IMG/VR virus record: IMGVR_UViG_3300028844_006787
Length of the DNA stretch: 64,000 nucleotides
Reading direction: 5' to 3' (one strand)
Origin: a virus
Lineage: Duplodnaviria > Caudoviricetes
Made by a program: the position numbers and the translations under genes. The notes under the pieces were generated by a model. It saw only the letters and a list, made by a program, of their open reading frames with translations, ran no database searches and was not told the DNA's origin. This document shows, piece after piece, positions 19,100 through 62,159 of this stretch. Within the stretch, counting starts at the first letter, position 1; each line of letters begins with the position of its first letter.

Positions 19100-19153
19100 G
19101 TTTCCCTAATATGTATTTTAAATAAATATTATTATTGTGTAATTTATTTAGTT

Positions 19154-23239: not shown

Positions 23240-23256
23240 TTTAATTCATTCTCCAT

Positions 23257-36528: not shown

Positions 36529-36617
36529 AAGTCTTCCAAACTTTAAATATTAAATCATTACAAGAATCCTTTGTATTTTTTTCATTTCAATTGTTTATTT
36601 TATAGATAAGTTTATAT

Positions 36618-36645
36618 AAAAAGAGAACACCGAAGTGTTCTCTTT
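36618..36645 (-). terminator. Rho-independent terminator
   Basis: AAAGAGAACAC-TTCG-GTGTTCTCTTT then T-run; cUUCGg tetraloop. Confidence 0.85.
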
Positions 36646-36697
36646 AAAAAATTTTACTTAATTTTTTATTATTGAATTTTAATTTTCATCTGTACTA

Positions 36698-43232: not shown

Positions 43233-43468
43233 AAAGCAGTGGTGGACCCGGCAGGATTTGAACCTGCGACCAAAGGATTATGAGTCCCCTGCTCTAACCA
43301 CTGAGCTACGGGTCCCTGAATTGCATCGTTGATTTTAGTTTGCATAATACGATGAAATTCTATTCTACTATGAATATTATTGTCAATAGCATTTTGCAAA
43401 TGCACTTCGTTGTCGTATGCAATAGTCAGAATTTCTTCTGTTGTTAAATTAAGTGTGTGATTGTTCAT
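43226..43468 (-). CDS. Hypothetical protein whose frame runs through the tRNA
   Basis: 80 aa ORF; first ~50 codons look like normal coding sequence, last ~28 are tRNA sequence. Confidence 0.4.
   Translation of the reverse strand: MNNHTLNLTTEEILTIAYDNEVHLQNAIDNNIHSRIEFHRIMQTKINDAIQGPVAQWLEQGTHNPLVAGSNPAGSTTALC
43240..43315 (-). tRNA. tRNA-Ile2 (anticodon CAT, lysidine type), CCA encoded
   Basis: GGACCCG TA GCTCAGTGGTTAGAGC A GGGGA CTCATAA TCCTT TGGTC GCAGG TTCAAAT CCTGC CGGGTCC ACCA; 76 nt; resembles bacterial ileX and lacks initiator features. Confidence 0.9.
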
Positions 43469-43754: not shown

Positions 43755-43790
43755 AAAAAGAAAGTGAGCAGGAAACTGATTCCTGCTCAC
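43755..43790 (-). terminator. Rho-independent terminator after galE
   Basis: GTGAGCAGGAA-TCAGT-TTCCTGCTCAC then TTTCTTTT. Confidence 0.75.
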
Positions 43791-43828
43791 CCATGTGACC
43801 AATGATCGGCAGCGACCCAATCTAAATT

Positions 43829-44845
43829 CTATTTATTATTATTCTGCTCCCACTTCCATGCAGAGATAACCATTTCTTTTAATCCCAATTCACATTTCCA
43901 ATTCAATTCAGAATAAGCATAATCTGCATTTGCATATGCACTTGTAACGTCTCCACTACGTCTTTCACCAAACTTTACATTTAATATTACATCGTTGTAT
44001 TCTTCAAAAGCATTTAATACTTCTTTAACTGTGTATCCGTTGCCAGTTCCAAGATTAATTGGTTCTGATGTATAATCTTTTTTATTACTTGCTTTTAATG
44101 CACATACGTGTGCTTTTGCAAGATCCACAACATGAATATAATCACGAACGCAAGTTCCATCTTTTGTATCGTAATCTGTTCCGAATACAGTAAGTTGTTC
44201 TCGTTTTCCAATTGCAGTTTGAGTAATATAAGGAATCAAATTATCAGGTATTCCGTTTGGTAGTTCTCCGATTTCTGCTGAACTATGTGATCCGATAGGA
44301 TTAAAGTATCTTAATAATATACTACTAAAATTATATTCCGCATGAAAATCTTTTATCATTTGTTCGCATATCTGCTTGGTACGACCATATACACTTTCCG
44401 CAGGTTTAATAGGTGTTTTCTCGGTAATAGGCAATTCATCTGCTTGACCATACACCGTGCAACTACTACTGAATATTAAATTACCGATATTGTATTTTTT
44501 CATTGCACGAAGCAAATTCAAAGTACCATTAACATTATTATCATAATACTTATCAGGTTTGCTCATGCTTTCACCAACACTTTTGCAGGCCGCAAAATGA
44601 ATTACCGCAGTTGCTGATTCCTGATAATATCCAATTATCTCTTCAAGTGCATCGTAATTACGTATATCAATATTACAAAAATGAATGCCTTTTTTAGTAA
44701 TTGCACGAATTCCATCAATTACACTTTCACTTGAATTAGATAAATTATCAATTACAACAACATCATAATCTTCATTTAATAATTCAACAACTGTGTGACT
44801 TCCTATATAACCAAGTCCACCTGTTACAATAATTGTTTGCTTCAT
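43829..44845 (-). CDS. galE: UDP-glucose 4-epimerase
   Basis: TGGLGYIGSH, HFAA, FSSSCTVYG, YGRTK, LRYFNP, DGTCVRDYIHV. Confidence 0.95.
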   Translation of the reverse strand: MKQTIIVTGGLGYIGSHTVVELLNEDYDVVVIDNLSNSSESVIDGIRAITKKGIHFCNIDIRNYDALEEIIGYYQESATAVIHFAACKSVGESMSKPDKYYDNNVNGTLNLLRAMKKYNIGNLIFSSSCTVYGQADELPITEKTPIKPAESVYGRTKQICEQMIKDFHAEYNFSSILLRYFNPIGSHSSAEIGELPNGIPDNLIPYITQTAIGKREQLTVFGTDYDTKDGTCVRDYIHVVDLAKAHVCALKASNKKDYTSEPINLGTGNGYTVKEVLNAFEEYNDVILNVKFGERRSGDVTSAYANADYAYSELNWKCELGLKEMVISAWKWEQNNNK

Positions 44846-46134
44846 TTAATCATTCCAGCCGCAACCGTTTCGTGCGTTTGTGGATCAATCAAAATAAAAC
44901 TTCCATTTGCACGATTTTCTTCGTATGAATCTACACACATTGGTTTACTTGTTTTTAAACTTATTCTTGCAATATCGTTTAATCCAATACTCATATTTTG
45001 GTCTTCTGCTTTACTAAAAGTATTTACATCAAGTGTATAAATCTTTTTGGTAATCATAGCAGTTACTTCGTTACTATTGTGTTTTAATAAATACTTTTTT
45101 CGTGGAAGCATTTTCTCTTCAGACATCCAACAAATCATTGCATCAGATGTTTGAGTAGTTTTTGGTAAATTATCAACACGAACAATTGTATCACCTCGTC
45201 CTGCATCTATATCATCCTCAAGTTCAAGAACAACACTCGCAGGAGTGCAGGCTTCTTTTAACTCAGTTTTATATAAATGAATTTTCTTTACACGAGTTTC
45301 AAATCCACTTGGTTGAATACTAACTTTTTGACCTACCTCAAAACGACCACTTAATATTTTACCTGCATATCCACGAAAATCATGAAATTTATCACTATGT
45401 GGACGAATTACTGTTTGAATATCAAATCGTGCATCTACTAAATTATTATCACTAAAAATTTCAATATTCTCAAGCATTTGAAGTAAATTACCACCTTTAT
45501 ACCATTTCATTTTTTGTGACTTTGTAGTTACATTATCACCTTTTAATGCTGATATAGGAATAAAACGAATATCACTGCTTCGTAGTTTTACACTGAACTT
45601 CTTTAAATCTTCTTTAATTTTATTAAACTTTGCTTGATCATAATCTATTAAATCCATTTTATTTACCGCATAAATAACATGAGGTATTTTCAATAAACTT
45701 GCAATAAACGAATGTCGTCTAGTTTGTTCAGAAATTCCTTTACGAGCATCCACCAAAATAATAGCAACATTGCTTTTACTTGCTCCTGTTACCATATTAC
45801 GAGTATATTGAATATGTCCAGGTGTATCTGCTATAATAAATTTACGATTTGTGGTATTAAAATAACGATACGCAACATCAATTGTAATTCCTTGCTCTCG
45901 TTCACTTTTAAGACCATCTGTAAGATACGCAAGATTTACATCTTCTTCACCTTTCTTTTTACTTGTCGCACGAATTGCTTCATATTGATCTTTCATAACA
46001 CTTTTTGTATCATAAAGCAAACGACCAATTAATGTACTTTTTCCATCATCAACACTTCCTGCAGTTGATAATCTTAATAGTTCGTTATTTTGAAGTTTAT
46101 CAACATTCTTTTGAGTTTTTTTATCGTCTCCCAT
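44842..46134 (-). CDS. cysN: Sulfate adenylyltransferase subunit 1 (GTPase)
   Basis: GSVDDGKSTLIGRLL, EREQGITIDVAYRYF, IADTPGH, VNKMD, ISAL, GSFILID. Confidence 0.95.
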   Translation of the reverse strand: MGDDKKTQKNVDKLQNNELLRLSTAGSVDDGKSTLIGRLLYDTKSVMKDQYEAIRATSKKKGEEDVNLAYLTDGLKSEREQGITIDVAYRYFNTTNRKFIIADTPGHIQYTRNMVTGASKSNVAIILVDARKGISEQTRRHSFIASLLKIPHVIYAVNKMDLIDYDQAKFNKIKEDLKKFSVKLRSSDIRFIPISALKGDNVTTKSQKMKWYKGGNLLQMLENIEIFSDNNLVDARFDIQTVIRPHSDKFHDFRGYAGKILSGRFEVGQKVSIQPSGFETRVKKIHLYKTELKEACTPASVVLELEDDIDAGRGDTIVRVDNLPKTTQTSDAMICWMSEEKMLPRKKYLLKHNSNEVTAMITKKIYTLDVNTFSKAEDQNMSIGLNDIARISLKTSKPMCVDSYEENRANGSFILIDPQTHETVAAGMIK

Positions 46135-46145
46135 CGTTTTTATCC

Positions 46146-47051
46146 TTAGAAATATCCTTGTTGTTTACGGTCTTCCATGCTTGTTTCTGACTTTTTATCG
46201 TCACCACGTGTTCCTCTTTCGGTGGTTGTTGCACTTGCAACTTCTGCAATAATATCATCAATATTATCTGCGGTACTTTCACAAGCACCTGTGCAAGTAA
46301 CATCACCAACTGAACGAAATCTAACTGTTTTTTCTACAACTTTCTCACCTTTTTTAAGTTGAACATAATCAGCATGAGCATACCAAATTCCATCACGTTG
46401 ATAACATTTTCTTTTATGAGAAAAATACAAGTTTGGTAAAGGAATATTTTCTTGCTTAATATAAGTCCATACATCAAGTTCAGTCCAATTACTAATTGGA
46501 AAAATTCTAAAATGTTCATCTGCGGATTTTTTTCCGTTGTATAAATCCCAAATTTCCGGTCTTTGATTTTTTGGGTCCCATTGACCAAAGTCGTCACGAT
46601 GCGAAAAGAAACGTTCTTTTGCTCTTGCTTTTTCTTCGTCTCGTCTTGCACCACCGATACAACCATCAAATTTGTGTTGCTCAATTGCATCAAGAAGCAC
46701 AGGAATCTGAAGTTCATTCCGTGTAGCACCGATACCAGTTTCATCTTGAACTAATCCTTCTTTAATCGCATCTTCAACTTTGCGATCAAATAACTTAAAT
46801 TTGTATTTTTCCATGACTTCGTCACGGAATTTCATTACCTCGGGAAAATTGTGTCCTGTGTCTACATGAAGTGCCACAAACGGAGAATTTGCAGGATAAA
46901 ATGCCTTCGCAATTAAATGAAGACAAACTAAACTATCTTTACCACCACTAAATAATAAAGCAGTATTTGGCATCTGTGCAAATGCTTCTCGCAATACATA
47001 TATGCTTTCTGCTTCCAGTTGTTCTAAATGAGTTAAATTACATGATTCCAT
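46146..47051 (-). CDS. cysD: Sulfate adenylyltransferase subunit 2
   Basis: LEAESI, FSGGKDS, HVDTG, GGARRDEEKARAKER, WDPKNQRPE, MEDRKQQGYF. Confidence 0.95.
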   Translation of the reverse strand: MESCNLTHLEQLEAESIYVLREAFAQMPNTALLFSGGKDSLVCLHLIAKAFYPANSPFVALHVDTGHNFPEVMKFRDEVMEKYKFKLFDRKVEDAIKEGLVQDETGIGATRNELQIPVLLDAIEQHKFDGCIGGARRDEEKARAKERFFSHRDDFGQWDPKNQRPEIWDLYNGKKSADEHFRIFPISNWTELDVWTYIKQENIPLPNLYFSHKRKCYQRDGIWYAHADYVQLKKGEKVVEKTVRFRSVGDVTCTGACESTADNIDDIIAEVASATTTERGTRGDDKKSETSMEDRKQQGYF

Positions 47052-47080
47052 TGTTATAATAAATATTAAAAAAAGTCAAA

Positions 47081-47650
47081 TTATACGGGTTGATTAAGTA
47101 TAAAATTAAATAAAATGTTTGCAGAGTATTCAATGCTACGATTACTTGTTCGTATTATTAAATCAGGATCACTCGGAGTTTCAAACATACTCAATGATTT
47201 ATTCATTGAATCTTTGTTATTTTGATATAATCCTTTTACGTCTCGTTTTATTACATCTTCTGCGGTTGCATGAATATAAATTAATTTAAATCTATCACCA
47301 ATTATATTTTTTGCATAATTCCGCATATTTTCAGTTGGAGATATAAAACTACCAATCACAGATGTTCCATTCTCAAGAAATAATTTAGCAACTTCAGCAC
47401 TTCTACGAATATTTTCTTTTCTACTTTCCACAGATAAATCTAAATCTGAATTTAATGTGCTTCGTATATTATCTCCGTCTATGCATTTTACCGCAAAGTT
47501 TTCTTTGTATAATAAAGACTCGGTTGCTTTTGCTATTGTGGTTTTTCCACTTCCACTGTTACCAACCAACCAAAAAACATATGCTTTTCTTTTTCTAAGT
47601 TTTTCGTATTCAGTTTGACTTAGAAAATTTGTTGGAAAGATTTTATCCAT
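47081..47650 (-). CDS. cysC: Adenylyl-sulfate (APS) kinase
   Basis: GNSGSGKTT P-loop, DGDNIR, RKENIRR, FISP, RDVKGLY. Confidence 0.92.
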   Translation of the reverse strand: MDKIFPTNFLSQTEYEKLRKRKAYVFWLVGNSGSGKTTIAKATESLLYKENFAVKCIDGDNIRSTLNSDLDLSVESRKENIRRSAEVAKLFLENGTSVIGSFISPTENMRNYAKNIIGDRFKLIYIHATAEDVIKRDVKGLYQNNKDSMNKSLSMFETPSDPDLIIRTSNRSIEYSANILFNFILNQPV

Positions 47651-47655
47651 TGATA

Positions 47656-48261
47656 TTATTTACCTTCCAATTTTTTAATTCGTTCTTCAAGTTCCTTGCA
47701 ACGTTTCTTGATTGCATTTTGTTTTTTCTCTAGTTTTGTTTCAAGTTTTGATAATCTTTTTTCTTTGTTTAAACTTTGTTTATTAAGAGTATCTACACTT
47801 TCTTTCATATCCGAAACTTTTACTGCACTTGCAATTTCACGTGCTTTTCTGAGTTCACCAATATCCTTTGACAGATGTGTTAATTTTAAATCAATTTGAT
47901 TTGTTACATCACTCTCTGAATCAATTGTGTTACTTAATCTTTCTCGTTGATGCGAAACTTTATCTTCCATTAAAGATAACATTTTATTCATTTCCTTGAA
48001 TCGTTTTTGCATTTGCTCATCTGCTTCACTATCAGTCTTTACATAGTTTTTAACATAATCACGTTGCCACTCTACTTGTTCTTTAACAAGTTTTACAACA
48101 TTTTCAAGTTCAGCATATTTTAAATGCAATTCTACACTTACTTTATCTTCTTTTTTTAAGACTTTTTTGATATTATCTTTTTGCCATTGAACTTGGTCAT
48201 CAAGTAAATCAAGTGATTTTTCAAATGCACTTAATCTTTGGTTTACTTCTTTTTCATCCAT
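47656..48261 (-). CDS. Coiled-coil protein with internal ~39-aa repeats
   Basis: DQVQWQKD / EQVEWQRD / DKVSHQRE periodicity; GGAGA RBS. Confidence 0.7.
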   Translation of the reverse strand: MDEKEVNQRLSAFEKSLDLLDDQVQWQKDNIKKVLKKEDKVSVELHLKYAELENVVKLVKEQVEWQRDYVKNYVKTDSEADEQMQKRFKEMNKMLSLMEDKVSHQRERLSNTIDSESDVTNQIDLKLTHLSKDIGELRKAREIASAVKVSDMKESVDTLNKQSLNKEKRLSKLETKLEKKQNAIKKRCKELEERIKKLEGK

Positions 48262-48287
48262 TTTTATATCTCCGTATTTAAATATTA

Positions 48288-49610
48288 TTATTTACTATTT
48301 TTCTCAAGTTCAAATTTTTTATCCCAATCAACCGTTCCATCTTCATTTATATAAGGTGGTTGTGGAACATCTACTTTATTCATGCTAAAATATGCAATCA
48401 CTCCACCGATTAACGCAAGTGCAACAACACCCAAAACAATAAAAAGTGTATTCTTCTTCTTTTTAGGTTTTTCAACTACGGGTGGTTTTTCTTCCACAGG
48501 TTCTTCAACAGGTGGTTTTTCTTCCACAGGTTCTTCAACAGGTGGTTTCTCATCCACAGGTTCTTCAACAGGTGGTTTCTCGTCCACAGGTTCTTCAACA
48601 GGTGGTTCTTCTTTAACTGGTGTAGGAGTAGGAGTTGGTGTAGGAGTTGGTGTTGGTGTTGGAGTTGGAGTTGGCATAGGTAAATCTTTCATTAGTTTCT
48701 CTATATCTACTACCCCGTATCCCCACGACCAATCTCTTCCAACTATTCCTTTATCGTGTGTGTATTTAAGAAGATGCTCACGAATTTGTGCGACTGTTTT
48801 ACAATCATTCATACCCGTTGCTTTTTCTTGTTTACGATGCTTTGCAAGCATCAAACAAATAACACCTGTAATAAATGGACAAGCCATACTTGTTCCACTT
48901 AAACTAGCATATCCTTCGTTAAGATATGTACTATAAATATTTACTCCAGGTGCAGCCCACTCTACTCTTGGTCCTAATGAAGAGAATCTTGCTATTTTTC
49001 CGTTTTTATCATATGCAGCTATTGCAATAGTCTCAGAATAAGCAGCTGGATATCCAACTCCACCAAGTCCACTATTTCCAGCTGCACATACTACAGGAAT
49101 ATTCATTTCGTATAATTTCTTGATACGGTCGTGCATTTGCTTATTTGCAGTTGGTCCACCTAAACTCATGCTTACAACATCAGGTTTCATTTCAATTGCA
49201 TAATCAAGAGCATCGCATAATCCTGCGTAACTACCACTTCCATTTTTTGCAAGTGCTTTTACAGAAATGCATTTTGCTTCAGGTGCAACTCCAACCATTC
49301 CGATTCCGTTGTCTTTCGCACAAATAATTCCTGTGCAGTGAGAGTGATGCCCATTTTCATCTTCTATGGGTTCACCTTTTATGCAGTTTTTACCAGGTAT
49401 CGCATTATCACCAATATCTGGATGCACAGGGTGTCCTGTGTCAATTACCATTGCAGTTATTCCTTCACCTTTTGTGATGCTCCATGTTGCAGGAACATTT
49501 AACTGCTTTAATCCCCAATCAATTCTTTGACTCAATGAACTTAACTCTTCATTAATTTCATATTCTGGTAATGTTGTTTTTACTTTTTCAAATCTGCGTC
49601 TTCTTTTCAT
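48288..49610 (-). CDS. S8 subtilisin-like serine protease with Pro-rich linker and C-terminal TM anchor
   Basis: IDTG, DENGHHSHCTG, AAGN, GTSMACP; (PT)n and PPVEEPV[DE]EK repeats; KKKK then hydrophobic helix. Confidence 0.9.
   Translation of the reverse strand: MKRRRRFEKVKTTLPEYEINEELSSLSQRIDWGLKQLNVPATWSITKGEGITAMVIDTGHPVHPDIGDNAIPGKNCIKGEPIEDENGHHSHCTGIICAKDNGIGMVGVAPEAKCISVKALAKNGSGSYAGLCDALDYAIEMKPDVVSMSLGGPTANKQMHDRIKKLYEMNIPVVCAAGNSGLGGVGYPAAYSETIAIAAYDKNGKIARFSSLGPRVEWAAPGVNIYSTYLNEGYASLSGTSMACPFITGVICLMLAKHRKQEKATGMNDCKTVAQIREHLLKYTHDKGIVGRDWSWGYGVVDIEKLMKDLPMPTPTPTPTPTPTPTPTPTPVKEEPPVEEPVDEKPPVEEPVDEKPPVEEPVEEKPPVEEPVEEKPPVVEKPKKKKNTLFIVLGVVALALIGGVIAYFSMNKVDVPQPPYINEDGTVDWDKKFELEKNSK
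48481..48674. repeat. Coding tandem repeats: 4+ x 30 bp then degenerate 6-bp (Pro-Thr) units
   Basis: ggtggtttYYNNtccacaggttcttcaaca units from 48481; ggWgtW units at ~48618-48674. Confidence 0.9.
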
Positions 49611-49623
49611 TATATTTTTCCGT

Positions 49624-49657
49624 AAATAAAACGGGGAGGATTTCTCCTCCCCGTTTT
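49624..49657 (-). terminator. Rho-independent terminator after tail fibre gene
   Basis: AAAACGGGGAGGA-GAAA-TCCTCCCCGTTTT-ATTT. Confidence 0.85.
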
Positions 49658-49672
49658 ATAATAATACCAACC

Positions 49673-55510: not shown

Positions 55511-55536
55511 TTTTTTACATCTCCAATGTGTTAGTA

Positions 55537-55977
55537 TTAAATTTTTTCTATATATTCAAGAGAATCAAGTTCAACGATGTTTCTTTTGAATAACGAACCT
55601 TTTATGTTTTGCATCAAGTAACTATTTTCAATAACCCGCAACGATTTGTTACGATGCTCAAAAAGCATTTTAAATTTTTGTTGTAATGATTTTATTTGAA
55701 ATAGAATTTCTCTTTGTCCTGCACCACCAATTTTTTCTACTTTATATAAGGTGTTATCTATTTTCTGAGTAGAAATTCCATCCATGTTTATTAAAGTACA
55801 ATCATCTACTTTAATATAAAAAAACATATTTTTATAGAAAACATAAAATTTATCAACGGCACTCCACGTTTTTACATCATCTGACAATGAAGCAGAAGAA
55901 TAGTTTACTACTAATCTATCAGTTTCCACTTGATTATCGAATGCACGAATGCTTTTAAGTTTCCTATTTATCACCAT
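55537..55977 (-). CDS. Hypothetical protein
   Basis: 146 aa ORF. Confidence 0.6.
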   Translation of the reverse strand: MVINRKLKSIRAFDNQVETDRLVVNYSSASLSDDVKTWSAVDKFYVFYKNMFFYIKVDDCTLINMDGISTQKIDNTLYKVEKIGGAGQREILFQIKSLQQKFKMLFEHRNKSLRVIENSYLMQNIKGSLFKRNIVELDSLEYIEKI

Positions 55978-56003
55978 ATCTTTATTATAAATAATATTTT
56001 ATT

Positions 56004-56483
56004 TTATTTTTTTGTAATTTCGTTGTAAAGTTTTCTAACTTCTTCTTTAAGTTTCGTAACGACCTTGTTTTTTACTTTTTCGTCACCTGTTACTGGTTTA
56101 ATGTTCCAAAATTCAATTTTGTCAGCAAAATCTGAGTATTGCTCGTTCATAAATTCTTTTTGTTCTTTTTCACTAATTACTACGATTTTGTCACAGAAAT
56201 CAAAATCTTCACGTGTAATAGCAGAATGAGTTTTAGTATAACAATCGTTTCCGTATAATAAAAAACTTTCACAGACTTGCTTTGAAAACTCATTAATTTC
56301 TAAATCTTCGTTGATTTTTATATTGGTGCTATATGCCGCTGGGTATCTTGAACTTGGGTATCGTCCCATTCCGTGCGTGTTTAACATAAACAAGCATTCA
56401 AGTTTTCCCAAATTATTAAAATATGCCTCTGCGAATTTACTGCGATACATATCACCATTACCAATAAAAATTACTTTCTTCAT
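56004..56483 (-). CDS. LMW protein-tyrosine-phosphatase/ArsC-like protein lacking the catalytic Cys
   Basis: KKVIFIGNGDMYRSKFAEAYF versus canonical VLF-C-x-G-N-x-x-R-S-x-x-AE; D-x-I-V-V and W-x-I motifs. Confidence 0.7.
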   Translation of the reverse strand: MKKVIFIGNGDMYRSKFAEAYFNNLGKLECLFMLNTHGMGRYPSSRYPAAYSTNIKINEDLEINEFSKQVCESFLLYGNDCYTKTHSAITREDFDFCDKIVVISEKEQKEFMNEQYSDFADKIEFWNIKPVTGDEKVKNKVVTKLKEEVRKLYNEITKK

Positions 56484-56523
56484 ATTATAATAATTATAGT
56501 ATATACTAGTTTTTATAATGTTT

Positions 56524-56709
56524 TTATAATAACTTGTATAGAAAATTTAGTAAAAATAATCCTGTGGAAATGTGAAGCAGTGCGTACCCACATAAATACA
56601 CCAATAATGCAATGATCGTATATTTTAATAGTTTCTTAATCACCACTTTGTTTTTTAAGTTTAAGTCGTGCCATATCAACAACCACATTCTTAACACTTT
56701 TAAATTCAT
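56524..56709 (-). CDS. Small membrane protein
   Basis: Hydrophobic C-terminal ~39 aa; true start probably near 56643, overlapping the resolvase stop. Confidence 0.4.
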   Translation of the reverse strand: MNLKVLRMWLLIWHDLNLKNKVVIKKLLKYTIIALLVYLCGYALLHISTGLFLLNFLYKLL

Positions 56710-57181
56710 CGAATGAAATCATCATCCATTTTCGTTTGTATATTAAATGATTTTCAAAGTATGTACTTGGACAAATACCATCATCGGTTTTAATTATTTT
56801 ATAGTCAAATACAACGTAACTTCCTATATAACTAAATTTACACATAATCATAGGAAGTCGTCTTGCAAGAATAGCATCTTTTTCTGCCGATGCAATCCAC
56901 TCATCAAGTAATTTATTTTCTCCGTGCAGTAAATGAGAAAACTTGAAATCTTCATAATGCTTTGCTTCAATAGTAAATGGAAAATCTTTAGGAGTAATAA
57001 TATCACCTGTGAGTATTTCAACTACATCTTGTCGTTCACCTTTTGCATTTTCCGCATTTTCTCCACCGAACATTGCACCTGACCTTGGCACACGACTAAA
57101 CTTTCCTTCGAAATTTTCCTCTAGAAACTTTGCTACTTCAAGTTCCCATGCGTTTCCTTTATCTTTTGATGCAACTCCCAT
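56636..57181 (-). CDS. Hjc-like PD-(D/E)XK Holliday junction resolvase
   Basis: SKxKGxxWExEVA, SGA, GDI, IEAK. Confidence 0.8.
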   Translation of the reverse strand: MGVASKDKGNAWELEVAKFLEENFEGKFSRVPRSGAMFGGENAENAKGERQDVVEILTGDIITPKDFPFTIEAKHYEDFKFSHLLHGENKLLDEWIASAEKDAILARRLPMIMCKFSYIGSYVVFDYKIIKTDDGICPSTYFENHLIYKRKWMMISFDEFKSVKNVVVDMARLKLKKQSGD

Positions 57182-57221
57182 TATTATAATAAATATTTAT
57201 CAAACTAGTTTTTATAATAAA

Positions 57222-57953
57222 TCACAGGTCTCCCCATGAATTTGTAAGATTTGCGATGTATTTTTTATTTTTAATATTTTCCAAACTAGTAACAAAATTA
57301 TTATAGTTGGATTGATATTTCATACTTGAAAATTTTGTATTCTGAATTTCAAGTTTTTCATGTTCTGAATAATTGCACATTCTTTCGTGTTCTGTGTGTT
57401 CTATTTTTCCAAGAAATTTTAATGGAATATTTTTTAATTTACATCTAAGTTTTTTAAGTCGTTCACAGAAATCAATTTCTTCGTATCCCCATCCTTTAAA
57501 CTTTTCATTGTAACCACGCACCATATTAAAGTTTTGTTTGGAACAGACAACACGACCACACATTCCAGCAGTTTCGGAAGAATACTCTACTCTTAAAACT
57601 GAATTCTCGTTTTCACTGAATTCGTTTAATACAAATTCAATGAATCCTTTTTGGGTCCTGTTGTCCGCATCCAACCAACACAATAAATTTCCACTTGAAC
57701 TTTTACCAAGAGTATTTTTTGCGTGGGACATATTAAAATATTTTGGTTTGTTTGTTTTAATGTATTTTAATTCAACATTAACATCTCTGAGTTCATTTTT
57801 CACAAAATCATCTAAATCATCAGTTGAATTATAATTTAGAAGTACAAATTCTACTTCACACTTATTAGTTATGCTATTTTCTATGTTTTTAAGATATGTC
57901 TGTTTTAGATGATGAGTTCTATTCATACAACTCGTTAAAAAAGATATTTTCAT
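57222..57953 (-). CDS. GT2-type glycosyltransferase with GT7-like C-terminus
   Basis: SCMNR, DAD, GYNEKFKGWGYEEIDF. Confidence 0.85.
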   Translation of the reverse strand: MKISFLTSCMNRTHHLKQTYLKNIENSITNKCEVEFVLLNYNSTDDLDDFVKNELRDVNVELKYIKTNKPKYFNMSHAKNTLGKSSSGNLLCWLDADNRTQKGFIEFVLNEFSENENSVLRVEYSSETAGMCGRVVCSKQNFNMVRGYNEKFKGWGYEEIDFCERLKKLRCKLKNIPLKFLGKIEHTEHERMCNYSEHEKLEIQNTKFSSMKYQSNYNNFVTSLENIKNKKYIANLTNSWGDL

Positions 57954-59764
57954 TTTTGTATACTCTGATATATTTCACTTCCAAAAAAACTATTTACAAA
58001 ATTCTCTGCTGAGAATTTATACTTATCTACTTCATTGAGCAAATACAGATGTGCAGCCTCTATTAAAAGAGGATTACTTGCTTTAACATATGCTTCTCCT
58101 AAATCATGAAAGTAAAGTGGATAATCTTCACCGAGATATTCAACCACCGCAGGATGTTTTTTAACTAAAATTGGAGTATTTCTTACAATACATTCTATTA
58201 GTAAATTACTTGCTGATATATCATAGAAATCAAATAATATTATATTACACGATAATAATTCATCGTATTGATTATTTGGTAATTTTGGAATTATTTTTGT
58301 ATTATATTTTTTGCATATGTTAAAGAATTTGCTTTTATTTTTTTCAAAATCACTTTCTTTAAAATTAAACTCATAATTTGGTTCGTTCATTTCATGTTGA
58401 ACACACGCATTAAAAATCTTAGCAATATGAGGAATATTTTTACTTATTTCAAGTTGTATAATTGATTTTTCTAAATGTTCGGGTGTTTCAATTTTTAATA
58501 TTGAAGTTAATTTTCTTAACCAATAACCAATCTGAATTATTCTTTTGTTTGGATTGTTATTGTAACGTTCCATAGTAAAAGTTAATTCGGGAAATTCAGT
58601 TGGATGATACAATACATTTACTTTAACATTCGGTAGAAGTCGTCTCCATGTTTTTGCAAGATGCTCTGATAAAACGAATAATCCTTTACATCGTTTCCAT
58701 ATTAATTTGTATTTAAATTTATTAACATAATAGTTTGGATATTGATTTACTATATCACCGATAAATTGTGGATACTCGGCAGGTGCATGAGCAATTCCGA
58801 TCCAACTTCGTGTAAGCATCTTCTTTACAAGAACTCCATCAAAGTTCCAACCAAAATCTCGTTCAATAAACGATGAAAAAACTACTCCACGTGGATTATT
58901 TCCTCGGGGTTTTAAACTACGCATAACATATTGCCAACCACTTCTATGCTTTCCATAACTTCCATCAAACTGAGTATTAAAATCAAGTGCATTATTCAAT
59001 TCTTGAGATTTTTTGTAGTATTTTTTAATGATTTTTTCTGATGCAGATTTTCTGACTTCATCGTTTCTGCGATTATGCGAGTTGTTTACTACTCTGTATA
59101 TGACAAGTGGTTTTTTAATGTGATAAAAAGAAAATCCATTGTTTGATGTTCGCAACCAAAATTCCCAATCGGCACTTTGATTATACTCTTCTTCATCAAA
59201 GTATCCTATTTTATCGTGTATGCTTTTTTTCCAAACAGGACTACAATGAGGTAAATTTCTTGCTACTATTTTATCATCGTCATACGCAAACATATCTTTT
59301 GCAAAATAATATTCAGCAACATAAGAATCAAACCAAACTTCTTTTGGTAAATTATCAAGAGTTACATTTTGATTTTCACTTGCAACATATACCGCAGTTG
59401 AAACAACTGAAATTGAGTTGTTTCGTTCCATTACCTTTACACATTCTTCAATGTGACTTGGTAATCTTTTATCATCAAGATTGGCATTTGTAATATAAAT
59501 ACCTTTTGATTTTTTGATTGCATAATTCCATACTTCATAGATACCAGGATCTTCTTCAAGTCTTTCGTATTTTATATTATTATATTTTAGAAGATATGGT
59601 TTAATAAAAACTATTTCACCTTCAGGTGAGTTTGCGTCTATTAGTATAAGTTCACATTTATCAAAGTATGTTTGCTTAACAATATTAGCAAGAAAGTCCT
59701 GTATGTATTTTCGTCCTTTATATAACGATGTAATAATACTTACAAGTGGTTCATCTTTCTCCAT
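57950..59764 (-). CDS. Two-domain glycosyltransferase (N-terminal GT2 plus uncharacterised C-terminal domain)
   Basis: PLVSIITSLY, LIDANS, NANLDD, ADWEFWLR; C-terminal half begins GKHRSGW. Confidence 0.8.
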   Translation of the reverse strand: MEKDEPLVSIITSLYKGRKYIQDFLANIVKQTYFDKCELILIDANSPEGEIVFIKPYLLKYNNIKYERLEEDPGIYEVWNYAIKKSKGIYITNANLDDKRLPSHIEECVKVMERNNSISVVSTAVYVASENQNVTLDNLPKEVWFDSYVAEYYFAKDMFAYDDDKIVARNLPHCSPVWKKSIHDKIGYFDEEEYNQSADWEFWLRTSNNGFSFYHIKKPLVIYRVVNNSHNRRNDEVRKSASEKIIKKYYKKSQELNNALDFNTQFDGSYGKHRSGWQYVMRSLKPRGNNPRGVVFSSFIERDFGWNFDGVLVKKMLTRSWIGIAHAPAEYPQFIGDIVNQYPNYYVNKFKYKLIWKRCKGLFVLSEHLAKTWRRLLPNVKVNVLYHPTEFPELTFTMERYNNNPNKRIIQIGYWLRKLTSILKIETPEHLEKSIIQLEISKNIPHIAKIFNACVQHEMNEPNYEFNFKESDFEKNKSKFFNICKKYNTKIIPKLPNNQYDELLSCNIILFDFYDISASNLLIECIVRNTPILVKKHPAVVEYLGEDYPLYFHDLGEAYVKASNPLLIEAAHLYLLNEVDKYKFSAENFVNSFFGSEIYQSIQK

Positions 59765-59792
59765 ATAAGTAAATATAGCAGATTATTATAAT

Positions 59793-60593
59793 TCAAGTTT
59801 TATATGTACATTCCCAAATATTATTATCCCAATATTTAATGTCCCATGAAATCCTCTTGGATGATGGTAACCAAGGAATTTCTTTTGTCATAACTTGATT
59901 TTTTCTTACTGAATTTTCAAGCATCACAATATCTGCTTTTATTTTCTGAACACGTGAAAAGCATGATTGATTTTGAATTCTTTTTCTATGACTTGTTGGT
60001 TGATGATACAAATGCTCTTTGTATAAATACTTATCCGCAATTCCTAACTTTTTTAATCTAAAGTATAAATCATCGTCATCCCAACCATACGACGTTATTC
60101 CTTCGTGGTATCCGTTTACTTTCCAAAAATGATTTGTATAACAATAAAACTGACCATTTAAATGTTGCTCATTACAATTAGTCGCAACCATCCACGAACC
60201 TCTGTAAAATAAATTTCTTTTTAGTTTATACACATCAAAAAAATCTTCACTTACCTGTACATCCGCATCTACTTTTAGCATTTTATTATATTCTACGAAA
60301 TACGCACCTAAATTATACGCATGACTTAATACCCAATCTTTTTGATTCGGAGCAACCACTAATTTAATATTTACTCCATTTGTATCCGTTGGAATACATC
60401 CTGCAATTGATTCGTATGAAGACCAGTCTACAATCACTATTTCGTTGAGTTTTTTTATTTTTACCCAAGACTCAAGAGAGTTTTTAAGATTTTCATTTCT
60501 ATCTTTACAACAAGAAATTAGTGAATATCCACTTTTTCGTTTTGCATTCTTTAAATAATCTGAAGATATGATTTGCTTACCCATGTTTACCAA
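59793..60593 (-). CDS. GT2-type glycosyltransferase with GT7-like C-terminus
   Basis: CCKDR, IVDWSS, VDAD, VNGYHE...YGWDDDDL. Confidence 0.85.
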   Translation of the reverse strand: MVNMGKQIISSDYLKNAKRKSGYSLISCCKDRNENLKNSLESWVKIKKLNEIVIVDWSSYESIAGCIPTDTNGVNIKLVVAPNQKDWVLSHAYNLGAYFVEYNKMLKVDADVQVSEDFFDVYKLKRNLFYRGSWMVATNCNEQHLNGQFYCYTNHFWKVNGYHEGITSYGWDDDDLYFRLKKLGIADKYLYKEHLYHQPTSHRKRIQNQSCFSRVQKIKADIVMLENSVRKNQVMTKEIPWLPSSKRISWDIKYWDNNIWECTYKT

Positions 60594-61513
60594 GTTACTA
60601 TTTCATCAAAACCCTCAATTATTTTGCATGAATTTTTATTATATAAATCACCACCCATGTCTGATGCAAATTTTCCAAAAGAACTCGGACTTGTAGGTAG
60701 CATTTGATTTGTTTTTGAAAGAATATACAATTCAACCATTGCATCAAATTGTCCAAGTTTTTGTTCTCCATAAACACTTTGCTCAAATTTTTTATTGTAG
60801 ATTATCAACTTCTCACCAAGGTTTTTCTTAAACACATTTTTTACATTTTCACAATCTGTGGATAAAAATATATTACCTTTATATGATCTCATATAATCCA
60901 AAATATAATTGTTTAAAGTATCTTGGTGGAATCTTTGCTTCATATTTTTAATACTACAAGCATCACCTCTACGAATATGTACACCGAGTGTATTTTCGGA
61001 AAATTTATTTAATGTTTCACCTGCGGTTTCTAATACATTTTTTGAAACTCTAAGATTTTTTACAATTTGTTTATATTCAAATTTGAAATTTGGAATTTTT
61101 TGGTCTAATATTTTTCCATAACTCCAATTCGGAAGATTACAAGATTTAACAGAAACTTTTTTAAATTTGCCTTCTAAAAAGTTTTTAGCATATATGTTTT
61201 GTAGTTTTATATACTTTTCATTTATTTTTGTTTCAGATACTCCATTAACAAATTTATCAAGTTGTATTGATGACATTCTGTTTCTTAAATATTCAGATTC
61301 GTCTTGAATTTGCGTTACTCCAAGTTGGTCATTTGGATTATCTAATAACTCAAATAATTGTGTATCATCAAATCCAATACCTGATTTCCAATAGCAATAA
61401 TATGGTAGTTCCAACGCATCTGATAATATTTTATATGAAATCAAAACTCTTAAACGATTCGCAAGTCCGTTGATGGGATGTACTAATAAATAAGAGTTCA
61501 TTTTATTCACCAA
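60587..61513 (-). CDS. Fucosyltransferase-like GT-B enzyme (GT11/GT23/O-FucT superfamily)
   Basis: GLANRL, GVHIRRGD, FLSTD, ELYILS, SSFG motifs. Confidence 0.75.
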   Translation of the reverse strand: MVNKMNSYLLVHPINGLANRLRVLISYKILSDALELPYYCYWKSGIGFDDTQLFELLDNPNDQLGVTQIQDESEYLRNRMSSIQLDKFVNGVSETKINEKYIKLQNIYAKNFLEGKFKKVSVKSCNLPNWSYGKILDQKIPNFKFEYKQIVKNLRVSKNVLETAGETLNKFSENTLGVHIRRGDACSIKNMKQRFHQDTLNNYILDYMRSYKGNIFLSTDCENVKNVFKKNLGEKLIIYNKKFEQSVYGEQKLGQFDAMVELYILSKTNQMLPTSPSSFGKFASDMGGDLYNKNSCKIIEGFDEIVTW

Positions 61514-62159
61514 ACTTAAACTTGAATATCTTTATATCCTCGTTATATACACCCGCAACTATATCACGAGTTTTTTTACTATAATATTCATTGTATTTAA
61601 GATGTTTTGTTTTATTCACCACAGGAAGTGTAGTATTTTCAATACCAATCTTTTGACAAATATGATTAAAGCAAGTTTGCATATTTTCTGTTCTACCAAC
61701 ATAATCAACATTTATATTATTATTTTCGTCTGTTAAATATGAGTATTGATTTTTAGGTTTTGGGTGATGTGGATTTGCAATACATTCTGTAATATATTTT
61801 TCAAAAGTTGGTGCTATTTTAAGTTCTTGCTTAAACGAATCAAATATATGTTCACTTTTTTTAGGACACTTTTTGCTCCAAGTTTCCACCATTTTTTTTC
61901 GGTAGAAATATCCAGATACAATACGATCCCATGAGTTTCTTACGAAACCAAATTTAAAATAATTATTCCAGTCCCAACCTTCGTGTTCAAATCTTTTATT
62001 TAATATATCAGACGATGTATGATAATAAAACGATGAATAGTTCGAAGAACTTCCGTGAATATCTGCATAATTGTAAAGTTTTCTTCGTACACTTGTGCTT
62101 CCTGTTTTATGAACAGATACAAATACAAATTTATGTTTGTGAGAAATTAACATATACAT
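61503..62159 (-). CDS. Carbohydrate sulfotransferase (Sulfotransfer_2-like)
   Basis: 5'-PSB FVSVHKTGSTS, 3'-PB FVRNSWDRIVSGY, C-terminal Y-x-x-D-x-x-x-F. Confidence 0.88.
   Translation of the reverse strand: MYMLISHKHKFVFVSVHKTGSTSVRRKLYNYADIHGSSSNYSSFYYHTSSDILNKRFEHEGWDWNNYFKFGFVRNSWDRIVSGYFYRKKMVETWSKKCPKKSEHIFDSFKQELKIAPTFEKYITECIANPHHPKPKNQYSYLTDENNNINVDYVGRTENMQTCFNHICQKIGIENTTLPVVNKTKHLKYNEYYSKKTRDIVAGVYNEDIKIFKFKFGE

What the first reader, a model, noticed from the sequence alone, without database searches (positions are those of the whole stretch)
43829..62159. Candidate phage-encoded pathway for a sulfated (possibly fucosylated) glycan
Seen: a co-oriented cysC-cysD-cysN-galE block closed by a terminator, and a sulfotransferase / FucT-like / GT2 / GT2 / GT2 block with mostly overlapping genes. 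The two blocks flank a tail fibre and a Pro-Thr-rich protease. Known: CysDN plus CysC make PAPS, the donor for sulfotransferases, and GalE supplies UDP-Gal/GalNAc. No PAPS/APS reductase lies in the window, so PAPS seems destined for sulfotransfer rather than assimilation. Inference: the phage builds a sulfated glycan on its virion, the host surface or DNA. It could act as a shield, or as a mimic of algal sulfated polysaccharides that baits a host which eats them. Single cys genes are known phage auxiliary genes; donor synthesis plus transferases together is what is unusual.
Basis: partly seen in the sequence, partly recalled or inferred. Interest (0 to 1): 0.9.

Follow-up and report, generated by a model that had tools for sequence, protein, structure and literature searches.

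The report
Phage-encoded PAPS and sulfated-glycan factory
A large uncultured aquatic phage encodes the full route from sulfate to the activated donor PAPS, at least nine sulfotransferases and ten or more sugar transferases, all packed around its giant fibre genes. It most likely builds a sulfated sugar coat, a capacity so far only proposed for a few giant viruses of amoebae.

Summary

**Genes in the window.** cysC, cysD, cysN and galE pass NCBIfam cut-offs with intact motifs. cysN overlaps galE by 4 nt, and a 13-bp hairpin terminator follows galE. The second block holds a Sulfotransfer_2 enzyme, a fucosyltransferase-fold GT and three GT-A enzymes.

**Wider context.** The window is 100% identical to part of a 205-kb metagenome contig. 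Across 130 kb of it I verified 9 sulfotransferases with intact PAPS-binding motifs, 10 confident GTs (about 16 candidates), RmlB, NeuB-/PseF-like genes and MetK. I found no PAPS reductase and no glycan-export genes.

**Conservation.** A diverged relative keeps the S8 protease, cysCDN, gmd, fcl and galE together with sulfotransferases.

**Viral contigs at large.**
- 0 of 46 sulfotransferase-bearing records carry cysD or cysH.
- 16 of 45 cysC-bearing records carry a sulfotransferase; 3 carry a PAPS_reduct domain.
- 0 of 43 metK-bearing control records carry one (two of the three families searched).

**Reading.** The phage makes PAPS for its own sulfotransferases. The acceptor, most likely its giant or collagen-like fibres, is inferred. 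gmd/fcl are absent from the stretch examined here.

**Precedent.** Moumouvirus and Cotonvirus fibril clusters (PMC10117803).

Other notes from this scan cover overlapping windows of this same genome. I saw none on other DNA.

The parts
61503..62159 (-). Sulfotransferase (compact Sulfotransfer_2 type, 218 aa). One of nine in the contig.
   Evidence: Pfam PF03567 E 3.5e-13, 50.7 bits against a 22 cut-off. K18, R74, N75 and S82 are invariant in 47 homologs. AF2 pLDDT 92; best matches HS 2-OST Z 10.6 and HS 6-OST Z 10.4.
60587..61513 (-). Fucosyltransferase-superfamily GT-B enzyme (NodZ/POFUT/FUT8-like).
   Evidence: Pfam NodZ 20.4 bits, below the 28.3 cut-off. Carries the HIRRGD motif. AF2 pLDDT 94.9. 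Foldseek NodZ E 5e-9; every description row listed (29 entries to rank 50) is a fucosyltransferase.
59793..60593 (-). GT-A glycosyltransferase with a Glyco_transf_7C segment.
   Evidence: PF02709 E 1.3e-6, 28.4 bits against a 23 cut-off. Paralogous to 57222-57953.
57950..59764 (-). GT2 glycosyltransferase, 604 aa, soluble.
   Evidence: PF00535 E 3.1e-15. No hydrophobic segment.
57222..57953 (-). GT2/GT7C glycosyltransferase, 243 aa.
   Evidence: PF02709 E 4.9e-13 and PF10111 E 7e-10. Overlaps the upstream gene by 4 nt.
56636..57181 (-). Phage PDDEXK_15 nuclease. An intervening gene, not part of the pathway.
   Evidence: PF24608 E 1e-28. Homologs in 287 GenBank phage records.
49673..55510 (-). 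Collagen-like tail fibre, 1945 aa. A candidate glycan acceptor.
   Evidence: Collagen, Laminin_G_3 and Peptidase_S74 domains. Six G-X-Y runs totalling 225 residues, with Lys in 13 Y positions.
48288..49610 (-). S8 subtilase with PT and EEPV repeats and a C-terminal membrane helix.
   Evidence: PF00082 E 1.7e-43; sequence features. Lies directly upstream of cysC in relatives.
47656..48261 (-). Coiled-coil protein, 201 aa, resembling the fibre C-terminus.
   Evidence: BLASTP match to fibre residues 1826-1887; sequence.
47081..47650 (-). APS kinase CysC.
   Evidence: TIGR00455 150.7 bits against 138.7. P-loop, DGD and FISP motifs present; dN/dS 0.15-0.19.
46146..47051 (-). Sulfate adenylyltransferase small subunit CysD.
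   Evidence: NF003587 432 bits against 195. SGGKDS PP-loop present; dN/dS 0.12. Belongs to a clade of metagenome-only (presumed phage) copies at 73-89% identity; the nearest cellular homologs are Bacteroidota at 62-67%.
44842..46134 (-). Sulfate adenylyltransferase GTPase subunit CysN, without a fused kinase.
   Evidence: TIGR02034 540 bits against 336. G1, G3 and G4 motifs present; dN/dS 0.10-0.12.
43829..44845 (-). UDP-glucose 4-epimerase GalE, overlapping cysN by 4 nt.
   Evidence: TIGR01179 equivalog 405 bits against 262; overlap.
43762..43792 (-). Intrinsic-terminator-like hairpin closing the cys-galE operon.
   Evidence: 13-bp stem, 6 GC pairs, T-run.
43240..43315 (-). tRNA-Met (CAT).
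   Evidence: ARAGORN.
42351..43232 (-). MYG1/DHH-like hydrolase. It keeps this position in a relative. A role as PAP hydrolase is speculative.
   Evidence: PF03690 E 1.3e-13. Matches PDB MYG1 exonuclease at E 1e-5. 58% identical in L087.
2873..37849 (-). Giant ORFs of 5408, 1361 and 4423 aa plus a 383-aa paralog of their N-terminal domain. Candidate virion fibres and glycan acceptors.
   Evidence: ORF list. The shared N-terminal domain shows 27-40% identity. No Pfam family for the 4423- and 1361-aa proteins.
62667..63758 (-). Alanine dehydrogenase. A neighbouring metabolic gene, not part of the pathway.
   Evidence: TIGR00518 474 bits against 392. Metagenome-only (presumed phage) clade at 78-97% identity.

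Best explanation
The window is part of a phage genome of about 205 kb or more that carries its own sulfation system.

Proposed steps:
1. CysD/CysN, the GTP-driven ATP sulfurylase, and CysC, the APS kinase, turn sulfate and ATP into PAPS.
2. At least nine soluble phage sulfotransferases consume the PAPS. Eight are compact Sulfotransfer_2-type paralogs with a carbohydrate-sulfotransferase-like fold, and one is Sulfotransfer_1-type.
3. They decorate glycans assembled in the cytoplasm by ten or more phage glycosyltransferases. These include four fucosyltransferase-superfamily enzymes, GT61, GT25, GT2 and GT7C-like enzymes.
4. The sugar donors are partly phage-made: GalE, RmlA/RmlB/RmlD-like, and NeuB/PseF-like enzymes. 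Relatives add Gmd/Fcl.
5. Methylation is possible, given MetK and methyltransferase-like genes.
6. The most likely acceptors are the phage's own giant and collagen-like fibre proteins, which would give the virion a sulfated glycan coat.

Shown here: gene identities, intact motifs, folds, operon coupling, conservation in relatives and co-occurrence statistics.

Inferred: that PAPS goes to the sulfotransferases (my estimate about 0.8), that the acceptors are glycans (about 0.7) and that they sit on virion proteins (about 0.45).
For: Gene identities and selection:
- The identities pass curated cut-offs and the motifs are intact.
- dN/dS is 0.10-0.19 against two relatives.
- Nine sulfotransferases were found. 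All seven that I aligned keep the 5'-PSB lysine and the RNPxDRxxS-type 3'-PB motif.
- The model for the window copy has pLDDT 92, and its top 22 structural matches are all sulfotransferases, led by HS 2-OST and HS 6-OST.

Operon coupling:
- cysN overlaps galE by 4 nt here.
- In relatives cysN is coupled to gmd, fcl, galE and then GTs.

Conservation:
- The relative MIZU16-1 scaffold_19 (cysD 85% identical) keeps two sulfotransferases, GT2, GT1, GT25 and GT7C upstream of S8-cysCDN-gmd-fcl-galE.

Absences:
- No PAPS_reduct domain other than cysD appears in about 130 kb (precomputed Pfam; my scans).
- No Wzx, Wzy, Wza, ABC-exporter or priming-transferase families appear in the same tables.
- No transmembrane segment occurs in any GT or sulfotransferase among the 86 ORFs checked.

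Viral contigs at large:
- 16 of 45 cysC-bearing IMG/VR records have a sulfotransferase family over its cut-off, while 3 of 45 have PAPS_reduct.
- 0 of 43 metK-bearing control records have one, for the two families searched there. Fisher p = 6e-6.
- The GenBank huge phage LR756500 carries both cysC and a sulfotransferase.

Layout: the transferase genes are interleaved with ORFs of 1945, 5408, 4423 and 1361 aa.
Against: - No product, transcript or virion data exist.
- About 75 kb of the 205-kb contig was not readable here, so cysH, cysQ or export genes could lie there.
- Peripheral GTs without membrane segments also build lipid-linked O-antigens, so a host-surface target is not excluded.
- gmd/fcl are missing from the stretch examined here, although four fucosyltransferase-like GTs are present.
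- The giant proteins are not Ser/Thr-rich (15-17%).
- The co-occurrence counts include near-duplicate records. The metK control comes largely from another biome and from smaller genomes, and Sulfotransfer_1 was not searched in it.
- Most sulfotransferase-bearing phages manage without cysD, cysN or cysC. The donor genes are therefore an addition, not a requirement.
- I did not verify capsid, portal or terminase genes myself.
Confidence: 0.6

Rival explanations
1. The chemistry is the same but the target differs. The sulfated glycan is built on the infected host's envelope or released as a polysaccharide (capsule, LPS or EPS), using the host's priming and export machinery. Possible purposes are blocking superinfection, changing aggregation or masking receptors.
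For: - The island holds genes typical of capsule or O-antigen loci: RmlB, RmlD-like, NeuB-like, PseF-like and two TviD_N-like genes.
- Peripheral soluble GTs are normal in such pathways.
- A weak LMW phosphatase-like hit lies at 56004-56483.
Against: - No flippase, polymerase, exporter, chain-length or priming transferase family appears in about 130 kb.
- The genes are interleaved with fibre genes.
- cysCDN always follows the fibre or collagen genes and the S8 protease in relatives.
Confidence: 0.25
2. cysC, cysD and cysN are ordinary auxiliary metabolic genes. They boost the host's assimilatory sulfate reduction for cysteine and methionine during infection, and the sulfotransferases are unrelated passengers.
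For: - This is the standard reading of phage cysC, cysD, cysN and cysH (PMC10914622; bioRxiv 10.1101/2021.01.05.425418).
- MetK lies nearby.
- The host's CysH could use the extra PAPS.
Against: - No cysH, cysI or cysJ in 130 kb.
- cysN is translationally coupled to galE, or to gmd-fcl in relatives.
- Nine sulfotransferases accompany the cys genes here, and at least two do so in the relative.
- cysC-bearing viral contigs carry sulfotransferases five times more often than PAPS_reduct domains (16 against 3 of 45).
Confidence: 0.1
3. The sulfotransferases act on something other than glycans: protein tyrosines, small molecules, lipids or phage DNA.
For: - Z-scores for glycosaminoglycan, cytosolic and tyrosylprotein sulfotransferases differ by less than 3, so the fold does not fix the acceptor.
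- A relative carries QueF, a gene of the 7-deazaguanine pathway that some phages use to modify their DNA (my own knowledge).
Against: - The sulfotransferases are interleaved and translationally coupled with GTs. For example, the window copy overlaps the fucosyltransferase-like gene by 11 nt.
- The best Pfam family is the carbohydrate Sulfotransfer_2 family.
- Nine sulfotransferases and about 16 GT candidates are far more than known DNA hypermodification systems use.
Confidence: 0.07
4. The contig is cellular or a chimeric assembly, so the 'phage pathway' is an artefact.
For: - I did not see capsid, portal or terminase genes myself.
- One 88%-identical AlaDH copy is binned in a Flavobacteriaceae MAG.
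Against: - The same order is recovered at 100% identity in a JGI 205-kb contig and in Logan contigs from three runs. An ENA 155-kb contig (no DNA held) shows the same called genes and exact protein matches. A separate JGI metagenome gives 95% identity.
- About 97 co-oriented ORFs span 101 kb with no housekeeping genes.
- Phage-type genes are present: a Peptidase_S74 fibre, PDDEXK_15, T4-type dNMP kinase, a tRNA and PHROG-only families.
- Other agents' follow-ups on the same genome report T4-like replication genes (not tested here).
Confidence: 0.02

Closest known systems
Fibril-glycosylation gene clusters of Megavirinae giant viruses (Moumouvirus australiensis ma457 SAT/APS kinase plus ma461 sulfotransferase; Cotonvirus japonicus ORF 725/724), PMC10117803
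   Same: A virus encodes its own PAPS synthesis and a sulfotransferase. These sit inside a cluster of nucleotide-sugar enzymes and GTs thought to decorate virion fibrils. A protease gene sits in the cluster, and sulfation is predicted but unproven.
   Different: The host domain differs: a bacteriophage here, a virus of amoebae there. The donor enzymes here are the bacterial split type (CysD, the CysN GTPase and a separate CysC), whereas the giant viruses have one fused SAT/APS kinase. Nine sulfotransferases here compare with one there. The island spans about 100 kb or more, against 12-21 genes.
Rhizobial NodP/NodQ plus NodH (own knowledge, not tested here)
   Same: A dedicated second copy of CysD/CysN-CysC-type enzymes supplies PAPS to a carbohydrate sulfotransferase. 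Both are encoded with glycan-building and fucosylating (NodZ) genes.
   Different: That system is cellular and plasmid-borne, with one sulfotransferase, a small lipo-chitooligosaccharide product and a fused CysN-CysC (NodQ). The window's sulfotransferases are Sulfotransfer_2-type; I did not look up NodH's Pfam family.
Phage cysC/cysH 'assimilatory sulfate reduction' auxiliary genes (PMC10914622; bioRxiv 10.1101/2021.01.05.425418)
   Same: cysC, and rarely cysD and cysN, occur on phage genomes, mostly aquatic and large ones, and are under purifying selection.
   Different: Here all three donor genes are present, without cysH. They are operon-coupled to sugar genes and accompanied by nine sulfotransferases. 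Those papers do not mention sulfotransferases.
Mycobacteriophage virion glycosylation (Freeman et al. 2023, as cited in PMC12619734; not read here)
   Same: Phage-encoded GTs glycosylate the phage's own structural proteins in the cytoplasm.
   Different: That system has one or two GTs, no sulfation, no donor synthesis and an actinobacterial host.
Animal heparan sulfate 2-O and 6-O sulfotransferases (PDB 3f5f, 5t03)
   Same: They are the best structural matches to the window's sulfotransferase: Z 10.6 with 179 residues aligned at rmsd 3.8, and Z 10.4 with 188 residues at rmsd 5.3. The 5'-PSB and 3'-PB motifs are shared.
   Different: Only 14-17% identity. The phage enzymes are about 190-225 aa, soluble and lack a Golgi anchor. 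Z-scores are tied within 1 with bacterial and N- and 3-O-sulfotransferases, so the acceptor is not fixed.

Membership tests
PAPS-dependent sulfotransferase (Pfam Sulfotransfer_2, PF03567) | Profile match above the curated cut-off | tested here: met
   The window copy scores 50.7 bits against a 22 cut-off. I scored two outside copies at 34.9 and 23.5 bits. Four more have unmarked precomputed PF03567 hits. The eighth (221 aa) has no Pfam hit on record and was placed by paralogy and my family HMM.
PAPS-dependent sulfotransferase (Pfam Sulfotransfer_2, PF03567) | 5'-phosphosulfate-binding loop with a conserved Lys, and a 3'-phosphate-binding Arg...Ser motif | tested here: met
   K18, R74, N75 and S82 are invariant across six paralogs and 47 homologs. 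The Sulfotransfer_1 copy also keeps them.
PAPS-dependent sulfotransferase (Pfam Sulfotransfer_2, PF03567) | Sulfotransferase fold | tested here: met
   AF2 pLDDT 92. The top 22 VIA matches are all sulfotransferases, Z 7.1-10.6.
PAPS-dependent sulfotransferase (Pfam Sulfotransfer_2, PF03567) | PAPS-dependent transfer to a carbohydrate acceptor | not testable with these tools
   Needs an enzyme assay. The fold ranking does not separate carbohydrate from other acceptors.
Heterodimeric ATP sulfurylase CysD/CysN | CysD profile and PP-loop; CysN profile and GTPase motifs; adjacent genes | tested here: met
   NF003587 432 bits against 195 and TIGR02034 540 against 336. SGGKDS, GSVDDGKS, DTPGH and NKMD are present. 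The gap is 11 nt.
APS kinase CysC | Equivalog-domain profile; P-loop, DGD and FISP motifs | tested here: met
   TIGR00455 150.7 bits against 138.7; motifs.
UDP-glucose 4-epimerase GalE | Equivalog profile; GxxGxxG and YxxxK | tested here: met
   TIGR01179 405 bits against 262; motifs.
GDP-fucose-dependent fucosyltransferase superfamily (GT23/GT11/GT37/GT65/GT68) | Family profile above the cut-off | tested here: not met
   NodZ 20.4 bits against a 28.3 cut-off. It is therefore not filed as a NodZ family member.
GDP-fucose-dependent fucosyltransferase superfamily (GT23/GT11/GT37/GT65/GT68) | Motif I HxRRGD and the GT-B fucosyltransferase fold | tested here: met
   HIRRGD at about residue 179, plus three more genes with H[IV]RxG[DN]. 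H179, R181 and D184 are invariant in 49 homologs. Foldseek: NodZ E 5e-9, then POFUT1, FUT1, FUT8 and POFUT2.
GDP-fucose-dependent fucosyltransferase superfamily (GT23/GT11/GT37/GT65/GT68) | A GDP-fucose supply (gmd, fcl) encoded alongside | tested here: not met
   No gmd or fcl ortholog in 101 kb here. They are present between cysN and galE in relatives L087 and L089.
Assimilatory sulfate reduction module | PAPS/APS reductase (cysH) and sulfite reductase next to or with cysDNC | tested here: inconclusive
   None in about 130 kb. About 75 kb of the contig could not be read.
Virus-encoded fibril or virion glycosylation cluster (Megavirinae type) | Viral PAPS synthesis, sulfotransferase, nucleotide-sugar enzymes and GTs clustered | tested here: met
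   The published clusters are described.
Virus-encoded fibril or virion glycosylation cluster (Megavirinae type) | Glycosylated virion fibrils | not testable with these tools
   Needs purified virions.
T4-like phage (Straboviridae-like) | gp23-type capsid, gp20 portal, T4-type replisome | not tested
   The rest of the contig is not held. Other agents' follow-ups report a T4-like polymerase and clamp. Only a T4-type dNMP kinase family (precomputed) was seen here. Of five sulfotransferase-bearing IMG/VR relatives, only one has Gp23.

The most novel reading that the evidence does not exclude
The phage covers its giant and collagen-like fibres with a sulfated glycan containing deoxyhexose or fucose and nonulosonate. 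This coat imitates algal sulfated polysaccharides (fucoidan- or ulvan-like). The surface glycan-capture systems of a polysaccharide-foraging Bacteroidota or PVC host would then bind the virion as if it were food. It would be a bait mode of adsorption built with phage-made PAPS.
Probability: 0.1. Interest if true: 0.95.

Novelty: new variant of a known kind. Interest (0 to 1): 0.75.

Why it matters

This locus and the co-occurrence counts link the two. At least some aquatic phages appear to make PAPS in order to sulfate their own glycans. If that is confirmed, three things follow:
- It would be the first bacteriophage known to me with a self-sufficient sulfation system.
- Virus-made sulfated glycans would extend from giant viruses to phages.
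- The way viral "sulfur-cycle" genes are scored in metagenome surveys would change.
- The work would also yield a set of nine compact soluble carbohydrate-type sulfotransferases for glycan chemistry.

It also raises a testable question about what a sulfated coat does for a virion in water: shielding, adhesion to particles or mucus, or host baiting.

Tried and rejected
- **Whole-genome access.** No genome is held for the window, and the JGI record is not searchable by handle. I walked it with all 12 exact-protein look-ups and reached record positions 73.7-203.5 kb only.
- **Megablast of the 18-kb region against GenBank phages.** No match.
- **CysD in GenBank phages.** Five hits, all at 45-47% identity: draft-assembly contigs labelled 'Acinetobacter phage', a Salmonella contig and two 4-5 kb unannotated 'Bacteriophage sp.' fragments, which I take to be cellular DNA. 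None belongs to the 73-89% clade.
- **Metagenome scan with the CysD alignment.** It was therefore useless for counting synteny.
- **Apparent APS_kinase hits in 15 of 46 sulfotransferase-bearing viral records.** These are 275-310 aa fusions. They consist of a P-loop kinase (profile positions 5-90 only) and a CTP_transf_like domain with a GRYQPFHKGH motif. They are more like a permuted NadR/NMNAT NAD-salvage enzyme, so I did not count them as cysC.
- **T4 late promoter TATAAATA.** Not enriched upstream of genes: 7 sense against 19 antisense occurrences.
- **Mucin-like acceptor idea.** The giant proteins have only 15-17% Ser+Thr.
- **Processive membrane synthase idea for the 604-aa GT2.** It has no hydrophobic segment.
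- **Host assignment.** This is unresolved. CysD points to Bacteroidota. AlaDH points to a mix of Lentisphaerales, Planctomycetes, Verrucomicrobiota and Bacteroidales.
- **Membership in the published 'moraphage' lineage (PMC12619734).** It could not be tested.
- **DNA as the acceptor.** Considered and judged unlikely, given the number and kinds of transferases.

Full report
**What is there**

All ORFs of the region lie on the minus strand of a 32% GC window.

The donor block is secure:
- cysC (47081-47650), cysD (46146-47051), cysN (44842-46134) and galE (43829-44845) each exceed a curated NCBIfam cut-off (Pfam).
- Their catalytic motifs are kept: the cysC P-loop, DGD and FISP; the cysD SGGKDS; the cysN G1, G3 and G4; and the galE GxxGxxG and YxxxK.
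- The genes are 29 and 11 nt apart, and cysN overlaps galE by 4 nt.
- A 13-bp GC-rich hairpin with a T-run follows galE at 43792-43762, then a tRNA-Met.

The transferase block holds five enzymes:
- A Sulfotransfer_2 protein (61503-62159, E 3.5e-13).
- A NodZ-like protein, below the Pfam cut-off.
- A Glyco_transf_7C-type GT, a 604-aa GT2 and a GT2/GT7C protein. Three of the four junctions overlap.

Between the blocks lie:
- A PDDEXK_15 phage nuclease and two small ORFs.
- A 1945-aa fibre with collagen repeats, Laminin_G_3 and a Peptidase_S74 chaperone domain.
- An S8 subtilase. It has no signal peptide, a (PT)11 tract, EEPV repeats and a C-terminal membrane helix.
- A coiled-coil protein.

**Where the window comes from**

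Exact-protein look-ups place it on a 155,455-bp ENA contig and a 205,483-bp JGI contig, Ga0309783_1000079.

- The fetched JGI stretches are 100% identical to the window, which is positions 111,088-175,087 of that record.
- Logan contigs from three other runs are 100% identical.
- A contig from another JGI metagenome is 95% identical across fibre-S8-cysC-cysD-cysN.

The arrangement is therefore not an assembly chimera.

Several features point to a phage:
- About 97 co-oriented ORFs fill 101 kb without housekeeping genes.
- The stretch carries an S74 fibre, PDDEXK_15 (homologs in 287 GenBank phage records), a T4-type dNMP kinase family, a tRNA and many PHROG-only or orphan genes.

I could not reach capsid, portal or terminase genes. 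Follow-up reports by other agents on the same genome call it T4-like; I did not test that.

**The system is much larger than the finding**

I walked the contig from 73.7 to 203.5 kb. I combined paralog BLAST, a family HMM and Pfam.

This verified nine sulfotransferases:
- Eight are compact Sulfotransfer_2 paralogs, 22-45% identical to each other.
- One is Sulfotransfer_1 type.
- All seven that I aligned keep the 5'-PSB lysine and the RNPxDRxxS-type 3'-PB motif, while the central segment varies and carries indels.
- K18, R74, N75 and S82 stay invariant in 47 homologs.
- The AF2 model of the window copy (pLDDT 92) matches only sulfotransferases in its top 22 hits. Heparan sulfate 2-O (Z 10.6) and 6-O (Z 10.4) enzymes lead, tied within 1 Z with others.

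Glycosyltransferases:
- Ten are confident: three GT61, GT25, GT2 (311 aa), GT2 (604 aa), GT2/7C, GT7C, DUF6734-GT2 and one of the two Nucleotid_trans genes.
- There are about 16 candidates in all.
- Four genes carry the fucosyltransferase motif H[IV]RxG[DN].
- The window's NodZ-like protein folds (pLDDT 94.9) like NodZ, POFUT1, plant FUT1, FUT8 and POFUT2. Foldseek gives E 5e-9 and below, and all listed hits are fucosyltransferases.

Upstream lie further sugar genes:
- An RmlA-like gene and an RmlB equivalog (445 bits against a 365 cut-off).
- RmlD-like, NeuB-like, PseF-like and two TviD_N-like genes.
- MetK and a methyltransferase-like gene.

**Is PAPS for sulfotransfer or for assimilation?**

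- No PAPS_reduct domain other than cysD occurs in the 130 kb.
- cysN is translationally coupled to galE here.
- In two relatives (cysD 85% identical) the operon reads S8-cysC-cysD-cysN-gmd-fcl-galE, with cysN overlapping gmd in one. In one of them GTs follow directly.
- The 190-kb relative also keeps two sulfotransferases, GT2, GT1, GT25 and GT2/7C a few kb upstream.
- The phage copies evolve under purifying selection (dN/dS 0.10-0.19).
- CysD forms a clade of metagenome-only, presumably phage, copies at 73-89% identity. A gap then separates it from Bacteroidota proteins at 62-67%.

**Wider pattern**

- The compact sulfotransferase family is common in viral contigs. In IMG/VR, 348 loci matched. 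In the metagenome protein collection, 4602 clusters matched, almost none carrying an organism name.
- Of 46 such viral records, none has a PAPS_reduct domain and only one has a full-length cysC. Only four IMG/VR contigs matched CysD at all.
- Conversely, 16 of 45 cysC-bearing IMG/VR records carry a sulfotransferase family over its cut-off. That rises to 18 at E<=1e-3, and to 7 of the 12 records of at least 100 kb. Only 3 carry PAPS_reduct.
- As a control, 0 of 43 metK-bearing viral records of 30-250 kb carry Sulfotransfer_2 or Sulfotransfer_3. Sulfotransfer_1 was not searched in the control set.
- Fisher p is 6e-6. It is optimistic, because some records are near-duplicates and the control comes mostly from another biome.
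- In GenBank the only phage record with both genes is the 462-kb uncultured phage LR756500.
- The literature reads phage cysC and cysH as assimilation genes and does not mention sulfotransferases. Another paper states that their role in phages is unclear.

**Acceptor**

This part is inference.
- None of the GTs or sulfotransferases among the 86 ORFs checked has a membrane segment.
- No flippase, polymerase, exporter or priming-transferase family appears in the gene tables.
- The enzymes are interleaved with a collagen-like fibre and ORFs of 5408, 4423 and 1361 aa, which share domains. In relatives cysCDN follows collagen or fibre genes.

I therefore favour cytoplasmic glycosylation and sulfation of virion fibres. 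A host-surface target that uses host export machinery remains a serious rival. gmd/fcl are absent from the stretch examined here, so fucosylation would need host GDP-fucose or genes I could not see.

**Comparison with what is known**

The closest published case is in giant viruses. Moumouvirus australiensis and Cotonvirus japonicus place a fused SAT/APS kinase and a sulfotransferase inside their fibril-glycosylation clusters, and their authors proposed, without proof, that the sugars are sulfated (PMC10117803).

The phage system works alike but differs in several ways. It uses bacterial split enzymes, has nine sulfotransferases and sits in a bacteriophage. Rhizobial NodPQ/NodH is the cellular analogue (my own knowledge).

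I therefore rate it a new variant of a known kind, with high but not top interest.

**Earlier notes from this scan**

They concern overlapping windows of this same genome. I verified the upstream rml/neu genes, the four fucosyltransferase motifs and two further downstream sulfotransferases. I did not verify the T4-like or PVC-host claims.

Noticed in passing
window 2873-37849 and upstream of many genes across the 101-kb stretch (for example before cysD at about 47065, and before 57181, 55977, 37849, 23239 and 19099): A TAYTTAT motif starts 7-29 nt before 22 of 97 start codons, against 2% of random 40-nt windows. It often abuts the ATG, too close to be a -10 element for that gene. SD-like motifs precede only 20% of genes (10.5% at random).
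   Followed up: partly
L100:1483-2355 (+), L102:934-1761 (-) and 13 other IMG/VR records: Many sulfotransferase-bearing phages encode a 275-310 aa fusion. It joins an APS-kinase-like P-loop domain to a CTP_transf_like domain with an NMNAT-type GRYQPFHKGH motif. It is probably a permuted NadR-like NAD-salvage enzyme, but a minimal PAPS-related enzyme is not excluded.
   Followed up: partly
window 48288-49610 (-): The S8 subtilase has no signal peptide, a (PT)11 tract, five EEPV[DE]EKPPV repeats and a C-terminal membrane helix. It always sits directly upstream of cysC in relatives. Giant-virus sulfation clusters also contain proteases (papain-like).
   Followed up: partly
window 42351-43232 (-): A MYG1/DHH-like hydrolase sits downstream of galE and tRNA-Met, here and in relative L087 (58% identity). 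It could remove PAP, the sulfotransferase by-product. This was not tested.
   Followed up: no
window 2873-19099, 23257-36528 and 36698-37849 (-): Two giant ORFs (5408 and 4423 aa) share an N-terminal region (40% identity over about 640 aa). Its first roughly 380 aa also exist as a stand-alone 383-aa protein (27-28% identity). The 1361-aa ORF shares a C-terminal segment with the 5408-aa one.
   Followed up: partly
L006:11493-11957 to 14757-15155, just below window position 1: A tandem array of small paralogous ORFs (about 80-150 aa) lies between the giant ORFs and the next GT2-sulfotransferase-kinase-GT25 group.
   Followed up: no
L235:5892-6509 and 10327-11523: A ClpP-like protease (PHROG head-maturation protease, E 4e-51) and an AAA+ ATPase lie about 4 kb apart, with a 3keto-disac_hyd family gene directly after ClpP and a 766-aa orphan between.
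   Followed up: no
window 62667-63758 (-) and L003:17274-18470: Alanine dehydrogenase and MetK are phage-clade genes. AlaDH has about 70 clusters at 78-97% identity, and MetK is 91% identical in the 190-kb relative. One AlaDH copy is binned in 'Flavobacteriaceae bacterium TMED42'.
   Followed up: partly
L105:2625-3071: The 190-kb relative carries QueF next to MetK, which hints at 7-deazaguanine metabolism in that phage.
   Followed up: no
window 56004-56483 (-): A weak match to low-molecular-weight phosphotyrosine phosphatase (E 0.0014, below the cut-off). Such enzymes accompany capsule loci in bacteria.
   Followed up: no
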